This document shows, in pieces, positions 30,720 through 33,800 of a stretch of DNA of 64,000 bases (its first letter is position 1; every line of letters starts with the position of its first letter). The stretch is from assembly GCA_977017645.1 (NCBI GenBank), contig OZ360221.1:115754001-115818000 (forward strand), written 5' to 3'. A model generated the notes under the pieces. The model did not search any database and was not told the origin of the DNA. It worked only from the letters and a program-made list of their open reading frames with translations. A program made the position numbers and the translations under genes. This stretch comes from Torpedo marmorata. Lineage: Eukaryota.

Positions 30720-30815
30720 TGTCGCCACGTGACTCCAAGCGGCCAATCGCGAGGTTCTCTGCGAAGTTTGCATGCTCTTGGCGGTGATCGATCACTGTAG
30801 TGGCATTTAAATTAC
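30720..30815. promoter_or_regulatory. HoxA1 proximal (probably bidirectional) promoter
   Basis: E-box CACGTG at 30726-30731, CCAAT at 30743-30747, palindrome GTGATCGATCAC at 30784-30795 and TAGTGGCATTTAAAT. Confidence 0.7.
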
Positions 30816-33800
30816 AAACGCTCTTCCATCAAGGTTGTGAGCATTATTAGCCCACAAATACTTCAAAGCGTGCCCGGCAGAATGCAGCAGGGATTTATTC
30901 AAGATACACGTGCGGTTTTTCTTGGGTCTGCAATGGTATCAGTGTAAGCGCCGATTGCGCGTCTACAATAGGGAGATATCCGTCTTCTTCCGCACAGCTG
31001 TCTCTCAAACAGGTAAGAAAAGCAACTGGATACTAATATTAACACTTAGGATCTAAAAGGCTTTCGAAATGATAATCGTATCATCGTCGATCTACAGGAG
31101 TTAGATGTTTCTGTGCAGTGACTCAGCTTTTGCATTGTGGGTGAACGAATTTTCTTTTGTATTGAAGCACAGCTCGGCGATCATAGGTCGGGAAAGTCTA
31201 AGCAAAAACTATTATGTGTTAGACCGGTTCGTGCACTTTAATGAAAGAAAACTGATGCAGTTCGTTCTGGCATAGGATAGCCTGTACACATTTATTACTG
31301 ACTGATTATGCCCTCAGTATTAATCAGTGCAAAGTAAAGACATCCTCAAAGCGGATGGCAAATGATTAATTGGATCAAGAGGTGTACGATGTGGATATTT
31401 ATAATTAAGCTGTGTTTGGTGTGGCGTCCACTTTAAAGAGGAGGCGCCATGTCTTCACTGTGCACGAATGTCACTATAGCCTATCAACGCCTGGCCTGCG
31501 TCTTTCCCCAGCTTTTCTAGCTATTGGCATGGAAATGAGCAGCTTCTTCGTCGAACACAGGCTGCTGGGAGCATTCGCTCACTATAGGATTACACGACGC
31601 CAAAGGTTCTTCCTTATATTGGCAGCCTGCCTACTTATTCTGGTTGCTGCGGGAATCAGTGTACTTTTTTATACACAGATATGAATAATAACTCCACTTG
31701 GCCGCAGCATAATGCAACCAAACGCGGTCGATTCGAAGGCGCTGCCGCCCATCTGTCAGCTTCCTGTAGAGTTCTCTCCGAGCAGAGAGGGTCAGTCATG
31801 ATTTGAGATCAATCTTTTGCGCATTACAGACTGACGTGGATCAGGTATACAGACAGCAATTTTACTCAGAATAATTAATGATGTCAAACGGTTGATTCTA
31901 ATCCTACAGTTGAATAGTGGAATGGCGACAGGATGTGAAAAATCGAGACTATTTCGTTACACATTTAGCTTTTGAGCATCATCATGGGGATTGACAACAA
32001 TGAAAATATATGTTCCTTTAAGCGTTATTAATTATTCAGTCTTTTCAAATCAACTAAGTTCACCATTATAACATGTATTTACGAGCTGTTGCAAACGAGC
32101 TGATCACTGCTATTTGCAGCCTCTGTGTGTTTTAAAATATTAAACAAAAATATGATGAACATAATGTCATAGAATATATCCCTTATACTCTTAAACTAAG
32201 GAATCTCTATCCAATGTCTGTTAAAAAAATCATTCTGTCATCTGCCGATTGACTTTCAGTAAAGCTCAACTGGTAAAAACTTACTGATAAAAATACTATG
32301 CCATATCCAGCAGGCAAAGAGGACACGGAAATGAATTGTAAAGTACTGATGAAATCATTGGACACATTTTCCCAATTTATCAAAATATATTTTTGTAACT
32401 GATTGAAACAGTACGTTTTGTCGGATTACCTTAAAATATACCCATCTCCGTTCTGTGTTCCTTAAAACATTAATATTTTCCCTCTTTTAACATGCGGCAA
32501 TTGGAAGCTACACTTTAGTACATTTCCTCCGCCTCCCATGTGCTAGTTAAAACAAATGAAAAGCTTTACTGTAACAAGCAGCTCCGCCATTTTTATTCAC
32601 AGACTGAGCAATCAGTGCAGAGGAAGCTGTCTCTTGAACAAATCTGGAGTCGATGGATTTCAGGGAAAAATCATGTAATAACGTCTGAGATTGAATTTTG
32701 CAACAAAAAAAAACCCTTGTCTGAAAAAAATCTCGATGCAGATTACTCGAGCACCCCGTTATTAGTCTCCCACCACACCACACACAAACACACACACACA
32801 TACAATCTCGTCCCCTGAACCAAGGCTGATTGCCAATTTCGTTTTTTGAGGTTGGAAAGAGAGCCCACAGTTCGGAATAACTGGGCGAGCTTCTTTCTTT
32901 ATATTTCTGCAGGAAAGACACATCGCCTGGTGGCCTGCCCATTACGTCGTGTAAATACTTGTTTCATCGCGGCATGTTATTGCCAATGTGTCAATGTTTG
33001 CCCGTGCGGTTTGCTTTTCTTGGCGAAAAGTATTATCATGCGGATGGACAGAATAGAGAGACCTGATAAAGTTTTTTTTAAAAAACGCCCGGACACAATG
33101 CCAGAAAGCAATAAAAAGCCATTTCCATCATTTCCCTGCTTAACGATTAAACAATTGGAAATGCAGACCAACAGTAACATCGACGTAAATCCTGAAGTAG
33201 TGTGCTCAAATTCGAAGTGAGTGACAGCACCCGCGGTAGAAAGTGCCGTGCTCTGTGAAAATGAATTACGACTTAACGCCTGTAACTTAGAAACTGACAG
33301 AGGTTCCCCGGCCGGCCAAGTACGTAAGATGCATTTTTTTGTTATGTGCTAGTACGGTTGATGCATTTGATGACATTTTCATTCATAAACGAGGGTTGAT
33401 TTATGAGATTGGGAAGTATTACCTCCAGAGCTGTTCCCGTCACTGCTTATGCAAAAGTCCAACGTGCTCTGGACGCAAACGCATGTTGGTGCATCGCCGC
33501 TCATAATCAAAAGTTTTAAAAATTACCACAAATTCTGGGACGGGCATGGGGTAGGGTGGGGGTGGGGTAAGGAACTATTATAAAAAGGTTGAAACAAAAA
33601 AAAAACATTGGTTGCCTATAAATCCTAGTGCACACCGAGGAAGCGTTCCTACAGCTGTTGCGTTCTTTATACAAGTACAAACGTGAAAATAGACTCGAAT
33701 ATGTGTTGCGTTTATAAAACTGTGGATCAAAAATATCATGTTTACTGAAGGTTTTTATCAAAATTAACTTTATAACAAAGTAAAAATTTTTGCTGAACAG

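What the first reader, a model, noticed from the sequence alone, without database searches (positions are those of the whole stretch)
30764..31018. Candidate HOTAIRM1-like antisense first exon divergent from HoxA1
Seen: + strand AAGTTTGC...GCGGTGATCGATCACTGTAGTGGCATTTAAAT at 30764-30812, then a near-consensus donor CAG|GTAAGA at 31012/31013, giving an exon of about 250 nt. Recalled: human HOTAIRM1 begins AAGTTTGC...GCAGTGATGGATCAC...TAGTGGCATTTAAAT at this same position. Inference: the bidirectional HoxA1/lncRNA unit may date to the jawed-vertebrate ancestor. The conserved block could instead be only promoter sequence.
Basis: partly seen in the sequence, partly recalled or inferred. Interest (0 to 1): 0.72.

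Follow-up and report, generated by a model that had tools for sequence, protein, structure and literature searches.

The report
Cartilaginous-fish HOTAIRM1 RNA beside HoxA1
In what is likely a shark or ray, the DNA just upstream of the body-patterning gene HoxA1 is the first exon of an RNA spliced in the opposite direction (the splice is seen in a related species), likely the counterpart of the human long non-coding RNA HOTAIRM1; most of the short stretch it shares with humans also sits in the promoter of the sister gene HoxB1, so it was likely kept as a DNA switch rather than as an RNA motif.

Summary
Confirmed and extended. The block (30764-30812) and the donor CAG|GTAAGA (31012/31013) are present. 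The block matches the printed 5' end of human HOTAIRM1 at 40 of 52 columns (by eye). Contigs of a relative about 95% alike (2 runs, 1 study, RNA guessed) show + strand GT..AG joints 31012>34143 and 33323>34143. This gives exons 30764-31012, 32913-33323 (acceptor inferred) and 34143-~34298, with a form that skips the middle exon, as in human. Rfam HOTAIRM1_2 hits 33227-33429 at 89.8 bits. The conserved DNA looks cis-regulatory: 30783-30844 aligns with this genome's HoxB1 promoter (77% over 62 nt), a Hox-Pbx repeat module like the Hoxb1 autoregulatory element. The HOTAIRM1_2 block also has a HoxB paralog, and the middle exon here is not homologous to human exon 2. HOTAIRM1 is already reported from amphioxus, medaka and Xenopus (PMC6784235), so the deep-origin inference is not new. 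Start site, retinoic acid response and function are untested. New member of a known kind.

The parts
29204..30605 (-). HoxA1 coding gene (exon 1 CDS 30605-29981, exon 2 CDS 29556-29204)
   Evidence: ORFs; Pfam Homeodomain E 2e-23; cluster order and Hox1 paralogs; exon borders read from the sequence; the name HoxA1 rests on cluster order, the Rfam HOTAIRM1_2 hit and recalled protein features
30726..30747 (.). Core of the likely shared (bidirectional) promoter: E-box CACGTG 30726-30731 and CCAAT box 30743-30747
   Evidence: Sequence; both motifs sit at matching places in the HoxB1 promoter (6 of 500 shuffles reach the score); promoter function inferred
30764..30812 (+). Block homologous to the 5' end of human HOTAIRM1
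   Evidence: 40 of 52 columns by eye against Table S3 of PMC5388432; Rfam HOTAIRM1_1 sub-threshold hit
30783..30844 (-). Module paralogous to the HoxB1 promoter, with two Hox-Pbx-like sites (TGATCGAT 30794-30787, TGATGGAA 30831-30824); likely remnant of the Hox1 autoregulatory element
   Evidence: blastn 77% over 62 nt, E 7.6e-7; 0 of 500 shuffles; motif counts; identification with the Hoxb1 element inferred from the consensus in PMC8846413 and recall
30764..31012 (+). lncRNA exon 1 (249 nt if it starts where human HOTAIRM1 does); donor CAG|GTAAGA
   Evidence: Contig X2-7 covers 30775-31012 and stops there; contig X1-1 joins 31012 to 34143; start site inferred
32913..33323 (+). lncRNA middle (cassette) exon, 411 nt; donor TAC|GTAAGA shown, acceptor at 32912/32913 inferred
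   Evidence: Joint 33323>34143 in X2 and as a 30-letter loose end in X1; X2-9 begins at the acceptor's CAG; best pyrimidine tract of 64 YAG sites in 31013-33323
33227..33429 (+). Conserved non-coding element = Rfam HOTAIRM1_2 (RF01976); straddles the middle exon's donor; has a paralog between HoxB2 and HoxB1
   Evidence: 89.8 bits, gathering 37; HoxB paralog 32.4 bits, E 0.014, L002 1898-2097, 0 of 150 shuffles
34143..34298 (+). lncRNA last exon; AATAAA at 34280-34285 followed by a GU-rich stretch; 3' end about 34298 inferred; tail to tail with HoxA2
   Evidence: Acceptor of both joints, covered to 34271 in X2; 95% pyrimidine tract; poly(A) signal from the sequence
34869..36473 (-). HoxA2 coding gene; its 3' UTR runs down to at least 34458
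   Evidence: ORFs, Pfam Homeodomain, contigs X1-6 and X2-11
26299..26315 (-). DR5 retinoic acid response element candidate 2.9 kb 3' of HoxA1, the likely shared RA input
   Evidence: Exact RGKTCA-N5-RGKTCA; 2 matches in the window against 0.19 expected; role inferred from the mouse Hoxa1 3' RARE (PMC4510006)

Best explanation
This stretch is the first exon of an RNA spliced on the strand opposite HoxA1 (its donor is joined to a downstream exon in contigs of a related species), likely non-coding, likely this cartilaginous fish's HOTAIRM1, and likely started from a promoter shared with HoxA1. Shown: the homology of the first ~50 nt to human HOTAIRM1; GT..AG joints 31012>34143 and 33323>34143 on the + strand; no ATG frame over 60 codons in either spliced model. 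Inferred: polymerase starts in both directions from an E-box/CCAAT core (30726-30747); the divergent RNA escapes early termination because it meets a strong donor 250 nt in and no AATAAA for 2.3 kb; it is spliced to three exons or skips the middle one, and ends tail to tail with HoxA2. What is conserved is mostly DNA: the 5' block overlaps a Hox-Pbx repeat module shared with the HoxB1 promoter, and the HOTAIRM1_2 element has a HoxB paralog, so both predate the HoxA/HoxB duplication, while exon sequence and the middle exon have turned over. The most likely working mode, inferred from human and mouse, is co-induction with HoxA1 through the 3' RARE and Hox1-Pbx feedback on the shared promoter, with the RNA or its transcription acting in cis on chromatin of the 3' HoxA genes.
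For: Joints and contig ends at canonical sites, readable as GT..AG only on the + strand. Intron 2 bins 33601-34023 have no cover while exons do. Human 5' match 40 of 52; Rfam HOTAIRM1_2 89.8 bits in the right order and strand. Human has three-exon, middle-exon-skipped and unspliced 4-kb forms (PMC5388432); span here is about 3.5 kb. Longest ATG frame 60 aa, no Pfam hit, and the relative has indels of -1, -5, -2 and +6 inside it. HoxB1 promoter paralogy; HoxB paralog of the downstream element. Human HOXA1 and HOTAIRM1 share a short promoter that HOXA1 binds (PMC10619521). DR5 at 26299-26315.
Against: The splice evidence is from a relative, 2 runs of 1 study, contigs only, and the tool marks RNA as a guess. 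The exon 1-exon 3 joint rests on one contig with 31 letters on its short side, laid at 85% likeness. The exon 1-exon 2 joint was not seen; contig X1-5 reads through the exon 2 acceptor unspliced. HOTAIRM1_1 scores 20 of 70 bits, and no other HOTAIRM1 model scored in 31000-33230 or 33430-34500. The middle exon is not homologous to human exon 2. No start site, expression pattern, RA response or function was measured. Mouse Haglr, the divergent RNA at Hoxd1, had no growth phenotype when its promoter was removed (PMC5676926), a warning that such RNAs can be by-products.
Confidence: 0.8

Rival explanations
1. The RNA is real and homologous in origin but is a tolerated by-product of an ancient bidirectional Hox1 promoter: only the DNA elements matter, and the RNA and its splicing have no function of their own.
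For: All detectable deep conservation coincides with DNA modules that also exist in HoxB. The rest of exon 1 shows no match to HoxB (32 of 500 shuffles) or, by eye, to human. Exon 1 folds no better than shuffles (z 0.33). The Haglr precedent (PMC5676926).
Against: Strong splice sites and a poly(A) signal are kept at the same places in two species about 5% apart. A splice-blocking morpholino in Xenopus gave a head phenotype (PMC6784235). Knockdowns change HOXA expression in human cells (PMC5388432). This rival concerns function and is compatible with the anatomy in the best explanation.
Confidence: 0.4
2. The 5' block is under selection as an RNA motif (for instance a hairpin or a protein-binding site at the 5' end of the lncRNA), not only as promoter DNA.
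For: The part 30764-30782 matches human HOTAIRM1 but lies outside the best HoxB1 alignment (30783-30844). A 7-bp hairpin over the palindrome appears in both MFE and centroid folds. Human HOXA1 protein associates with HOTAIRM1 RNA (PMC10619521).
Against: The hairpin follows from a DNA palindrome (GTGATCGATCAC) that is a Hox-Pbx-like site; by eye the human version has a mismatch in the stem and no compensatory change. Whole-exon folding z 0.33.
Confidence: 0.15
3. There is no stable spliced RNA in this species: the block is promoter only, and the joints belong to the relative alone or are assembly artefacts.
For: No run of this species was laid; few contigs; RNA status is guessed.
Against: Two different joints share one acceptor with a 95% pyrimidine tract, both GT..AG, one of them in both runs; the window keeps all these sites.
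Confidence: 0.07
4. The spliced RNA encodes a conserved micropeptide.
For: A 60-codon ATG frame lies in the middle exon (33038-33217).
Against: The relative has frame-breaking indels in it; no Pfam match; the form without the middle exon has frames of at most 31 codons.
Confidence: 0.03

Closest known systems
Human HOTAIRM1 / mouse Hotairm1 (PMC5388432, PMC10619521, PMC4510006)
   Same: Between HoxA1 and HoxA2, opposite strand, starts in the HoxA1 promoter; homologous first ~50 nt; three exons with a form lacking the middle exon; span of about 3.5 kb against about 4 kb; contains Rfam HOTAIRM1_2.
   Different: Exon 1 is about 249 nt against about 290 nt (my count from Table S3) and unalignable after the 5' part. 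The middle exon here ends 65-90 nt upstream of the point that matches the start of human exon 2, and the two human acceptor AGs are not kept. The last exon is about 156 nt with no Rfam match.
Syntenic Hotairm1 of amphioxus, medaka, spotted gar and Xenopus (PMC6784235)
   Same: Same position and orientation; spliced in Xenopus.
   Different: Those were assigned by synteny; the text does not mention sharks. Here there is sequence homology to human at two places.
Hoxb1 rhombomere-4 autoregulatory element (Popperl 1995 as described in PMC8846413 and PMC2213666)
   Same: This genome's HoxB1 promoter has three Hox-Pbx-like repeats and TGACA sites; the HoxA1 block aligns with the part holding the last two repeats.
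   Different: HoxA1 keeps two relaxed repeats, none matching the strict published consensus, and no TGACA in the module. I saw no printed sequence of the mouse element, so the match to it is by consensus and recall.
HOXA-AS3 / HOXB-AS3 paralogous lncRNAs (PMC8330917)
   Same: Hox antisense RNAs whose conservation lies in promoters shared between the A and B clusters, down to elephant shark.
   Different: Different locus (Hox5-7). There both paralogs are transcribed; here a divergent RNA at HoxB1 was not tested.
Haglr / HOXD-AS1 (PMC5676926)
   Same: Divergent RNA from the bidirectional promoter of a Hox1 paralog.
   Different: The conserved block is not detectable at this genome's HoxD1 promoter (258 of 500 shuffles reach the score).

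Membership tests
HOTAIRM1 | Lies between HoxA1 and HoxA2 | tested here: met
   Flanking homeobox genes and cluster order
HOTAIRM1 | Transcribed on the strand opposite the Hox genes and spliced | tested here: met
   GT..AG joints readable only on the + strand, in contigs of a relative; 2 runs, 1 study
HOTAIRM1 | 5' end homologous to human exon 1 | tested here: met
   40 of 52 columns by eye against Table S3 of PMC5388432
HOTAIRM1 | Rfam HOTAIRM1_1 (RF01975) at gathering score | tested here: not met
   20 bits against 70, E 6.5; right place and strand, 5' part only
HOTAIRM1 | Rfam HOTAIRM1_2 (RF01976) at gathering score | tested here: met
   89.8 bits against 37; the element is mostly intronic in the human cDNA and has a HoxB paralog
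HOTAIRM1 | Three exons with a form that skips the middle exon | tested here: inconclusive
   Exon 1>3 and 2>3 joints seen, 1>2 only inferred; the middle exon is not homologous to human exon 2
HOTAIRM1 | No conserved protein frame | tested here: met
   Longest ATG frame 60 aa, broken by indels in the relative
HOTAIRM1 | Start site within the promoter shared with HoxA1 | not testable with these tools
   Contigs cannot show a start; the most 5' contig begins at 30775
HOTAIRM1 | Induced by retinoic acid with HoxA1; acts on HOXA chromatin | not testable with these tools
   Only a DR5 candidate at 26299-26315
Hoxb1-type autoregulatory element | Repeated Hox-Pbx sites upstream of a Hox1 gene | tested here: inconclusive
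   HoxA1: 2 relaxed, 0 strict; HoxB1: 3 relaxed, 1 strict; HoxD1: 0; background 0.15 per 400 nt
Hoxb1-type autoregulatory element | Drives rhombomere-4 expression dependent on Hox1 and Pbx | not testable with these tools
   Needs a reporter assay

The most novel reading that the evidence does not exclude
HOTAIRM1 begins inside the remnant of the ancestral Hox1 autoregulatory element: its conserved 5' end is the transcribed HoxA paralog of the Hoxb1 rhombomere-4 element, and the second conserved region is an enhancer-like element also kept in HoxB. Divergent transcription through this pair predates the vertebrate genome duplications, making HOTAIRM1, Haglr and a possible unannotated RNA at HoxB1 sister lncRNAs whose exons were rebuilt around fixed DNA switches. 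HoxA1 would then have kept, not lost, part of its autoregulatory element and use it to drive the lncRNA.
Probability: 0.3. Interest if true: 0.7.

Novelty: new member of a known kind. Interest (0 to 1): 0.45.

Why it matters
It fills the cartilaginous-fish gap in the history of a much-studied lncRNA with splice evidence and sequence homology rather than position alone. It also separates two things that are usually merged under 'conserved lncRNA': the RNA's position, direction and first donor position persist, while the conserved letters are shared with HoxB and so look like DNA switches. That gives a direct test for human HOTAIRM1 work: the first 50-80 nt and Rfam region 2 should be treated as cis-regulatory DNA when deletions are designed. 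It also bears on the textbook case that Hoxa1 lost its autoregulatory element after duplication (PMC2213666), since a recognisable remnant is still there.

Tried and rejected
Run search: no RNA holder on record was listed; 2 runs with a share of 0.06 were then laid. Own-genome DNA searches with 30600-31100 and 33180-33470 found only the window itself; the HoxB paralogs appeared only on direct alignment. Metagenome scans for other vertebrate copies: 0 loci with the 5' block pattern; 20 loci with a 20-nt pattern from the downstream element, of which 18 of 20 matched the window over 20-22 nt only and 2 of 20 gave no match at E 0.05, all taken as chance. Rfam scans of 31000-33230 and 33430-34500 gave only sub-threshold unrelated families. 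RNA structure in exon 1: z 0.33, 126 of 200 shuffles fold as well. The block at HoxD1: not found. A micropeptide: rejected. Four papers wanted were not held (Hara 2018, Santini 2003, Ferretti 2005, Di Rocco 1997); the tammar lncRNA sequences are in a .doc supplement that cannot be read. Paper search returned no paper holding 'hotairm1' among the 40 of 3,223 listed; one search returned none. Earlier notes of this scan: nothing near, nothing by sequence, and no note with the words hotairm1 or hoxa1.

Full report
Setting. The window is G000:C5:115754001-115818000 of a 6.2-Gb genome. It holds the 3' end of a Hox cluster on the - strand: group 1 at 29204-30605, group 2 at 34869-36473, then groups 3 and 4. 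A search with the group 1 homeodomain found two more Hox1 genes, on C61 and C39. I read C5 as HoxA, C61 as HoxB and C39 as HoxD from the homeobox order, the N-termini and the Rfam hit below; these names rest partly on recalled cluster content. A group 2 gene next to HoxD1 points to a cartilaginous fish (recalled feature).

Observation. Table S3 of PMC5388432 prints the cloned human spliced HOTAIRM1; its first 51 nt match 30764-30812 at 40 of 52 columns, counted by eye. Rfam HOTAIRM1_1 falls on 30793-30926 but at 20 bits of a gathering score of 70, with a good alignment only at its 5' end; it was not listed in the 4.5-kb scan at E 5. The donor matches U1 at 8 of 9 places; 4.9% of 2000 shuffles of the 500 nt hold such a site. 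A whole-window Rfam scan gave 1 hit at gathering score: HOTAIRM1_2 at 33227-33429, + strand, 89.8 bits.

Transcription and splicing. The run search listed 2 runs of one study, contigs only, RNA guessed, share 0.06. Laid on 30640-34860 at 85% likeness, 6 and 5 contigs fitted, with 10-11 differences over exon 1, so the organism is a relative and not this species. Four joints were listed. Two are canonical introns on the + strand: 31010>34141 in X1 (GT..AG when cut at 31012/34143; 3130 nt; one contig, 31 letters on the short side) and 33323>34143 in X2 (GT..AG; 819 nt; 130 letters on the short side). The other two (32744>32845 at a CA repeat; 33432>33477, depth 2.3) are not canonical and I take them as indel differences. 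X1 also has a contig that ends at 33323 with 30 loose letters matching the window from 34143, so that joint is in both runs. X2-7 spans 30775-31012 and stops at the donor. X2-9 begins at the CAG of an acceptor at 32910-32912, the best pyrimidine tract of 64 YAG sites in 31013-33323; CAG is exactly what exon 1 and intron 1 share at their ends, which fits a merge of spliced and unspliced paths (inference). The exon 1>2 joint itself was not listed, and X1-5 reads through this acceptor from 32685, so a form that keeps intron 1 or starts inside it also exists. Intron 1 has patchy contigs; bins 33601-34023 in intron 2 have none. The last exon is covered to 34271 and is followed by AATAAA at 34280. 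HoxA2 3' UTR contigs reach down to 34458 and 34493. Read on the - strand neither intron is canonical, so the spliced RNA is on the + strand, though contigs do not show strand themselves.

Coding. The two spliced models have longest ATG frames of 31 and 60 codons. The 60-codon frame has no Pfam match, and the relative carries indels of -1, -5, -2 and +6 within it.

Comparison with the human gene. Human HOTAIRM1 has a three-exon form, a form without the middle exon and an unspliced 4-kb form (PMC5388432). The outline here is the same. The middle exons are not the same DNA. In the human cDNA, exon 1 is followed by the last 40 positions of the HOTAIRM1_2 model, and three words from the model's upstream part were not found in the supplement (line breaks could hide a word). 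So human exon 2 starts at points matching 33389 and 33413, where the window has AA and GG in place of AG, inside intron 2. The middle exon here ends at 33323, at a donor that the Rfam consensus also carries. One element is thus used as a donor region in this lineage and as an acceptor region in human.

Why the letters are conserved. The 400 nt upstream of HoxA1 align with the same stretch of HoxB1 (score 127, best of 200 shuffles 52) but hardly with HoxD1 (66 against 62). blastn gives 30783-30844 against 184-244 nt upstream of HoxB1, 77% over 62 nt, E 7.6e-7; nhmmer E 1.2e-11; 0 of 500 shuffles reach the block's score. The E-box and CCAAT box lie at matching places. HoxB1 has three Hox-Pbx-like repeats (-253, -234, -198) and TGACA sites, HoxA1 two (-226, -189), HoxD1 none, against 0.15 expected per 400 nt. 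The published consensus of the Hoxb1 autoregulatory sites (PMC8846413) is met strictly by 1 of the 3 HoxB1 repeats and by neither HoxA1 repeat. That this module is the Hoxb1 element is therefore an inference from consensus, position and recall; the primary papers were not held. The downstream element also has a paralog, in the same orientation, 1.7-1.9 kb past the HoxB2 stop (1.4-1.6 kb in HoxA): 0 of 150 shuffles, and HOTAIRM1_2 at 32.4 bits, E 0.014 in a 901-nt scan aimed there after the alignment. The 3' part of exon 1 has no HoxB match (32 of 500 shuffles), and exon 1 folds like its shuffles (z 0.33).

Mechanism. Shown: anatomy, homology, splicing in a relative, paralogy with HoxB. Inferred: a shared bidirectional promoter; stabilisation of the divergent RNA by the early donor and the lack of AATAAA on the + strand before 33110; retinoic acid input from the DR5 at 26299-26315 (mouse precedent PMC4510006); Hox1-Pbx feedback on the promoter (human HOXA1 binds it, PMC10619521); action in cis on 3' HoxA chromatin (PMC5388432). 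Whether the RNA itself does anything in this animal is open; I give about 0.4 to its being a by-product, given the Haglr result (PMC5676926).

What is known. Hotairm1 is published for mammals, birds, reptiles, Xenopus, medaka, gar and amphioxus (PMC6784235; PMC4378963; PMC3541083), so an origin at or before jawed vertebrates is already in print. I found no record for a cartilaginous fish: 11 papers hold 'HOTAIRM1', 'conserved' and 'shark', of which I read passages in 3 and none reported one; PMC6784235 has no 'shark', 'Callorhinchus' or 'chondrichth' in its text, but its Figure 2 could not be seen. Other searches. Hara 2018 was not held, and database annotations of shark genomes were not checked, so a prior record is possible. 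None of these searches showed a paper linking the HOTAIRM1 5' end to the Hoxb1 element, but Tvrdik and Capecchi 2006 was seen only as cited in PMC2213666 and may discuss the remnant. The same pattern of A/B promoter paralogy is published for HOXA-AS3/HOXB-AS3 (PMC8330917).

What I saw of each paper. Passages: PMC8293171, PMC4378963, PMC10619521, PMC3541083 (supplement list 25), PMC4510006, PMC8330917, PMC2213666, PMC2425489 (46, not used), PMC5003318, PMC5676926, PMC4805430. PMC6784235: part 2 of 4 of the text and passages. PMC5388432: passages and supplement passages. PMC8846413: passages and section 8.

Verdict. It is a new member of a known kind. The added value lies in the splice evidence from a cartilaginous fish and in the sign that the conserved letters are HoxA/HoxB-shared DNA switches. 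Interest 0.45.

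Noticed in passing
L003 (G000:C39:101678200-101688100), 327 nt upstream of the HoxD1 start codon, antisense strand: A donor GAG|GTAAGA at a place like that of the HoxA1 divergent donor (408 nt); a candidate first exon of a Haglr-like RNA. Donors of this strength are common (10 in 8.2 kb).
   Followed up: partly
L002 1898-2097 (between HoxB2 and HoxB1): HoxB paralog of the Rfam HOTAIRM1_2 element, 32.4 bits; the donor is degenerate there. Suggests RF01976 is an enhancer-like element older than the cluster duplication.
   Followed up: partly
L002, 274-190 nt upstream of the HoxB1 start codon: Three Hox-Pbx-like repeats with TGACA sites: the likely Hoxb1 autoregulatory element of this genome, very close to the gene.
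   Followed up: partly
window 46942-46958 (-): A second exact DR5 element, between the group 3 and group 4 genes; candidate RARE.
   Followed up: no
window 31130-32624: Contigs of the relative cover parts of intron 1, and one runs from 32685 through the middle exon to exon 3: an intron-retaining form or an internal start, recalling mouse Hotairm2 and the unspliced human form.
   Followed up: no
window 34280-34356: Poly(A) signals on opposite strands 70 nt apart (AATAAA + at 34280, - at 34351-34356): the lncRNA and HoxA2 may end almost back to back.
   Followed up: no
window 1-20500: Fragments of LINE-like reverse transcriptase frames and, at about 16100-19600 (-), a gypsy-like retrotransposon with gag-, RT- and integrase-like frames; repeats stop short of the Hox cluster (names recalled from motifs).
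   Followed up: no
G000:C1163:140791-308339: Several homeobox matches on a separate small contig, possibly a relaxed HoxC cluster.
   Followed up: no
window 52684-52833: A 150-nt run of N between the group 3 and group 4 genes.
   Followed up: no
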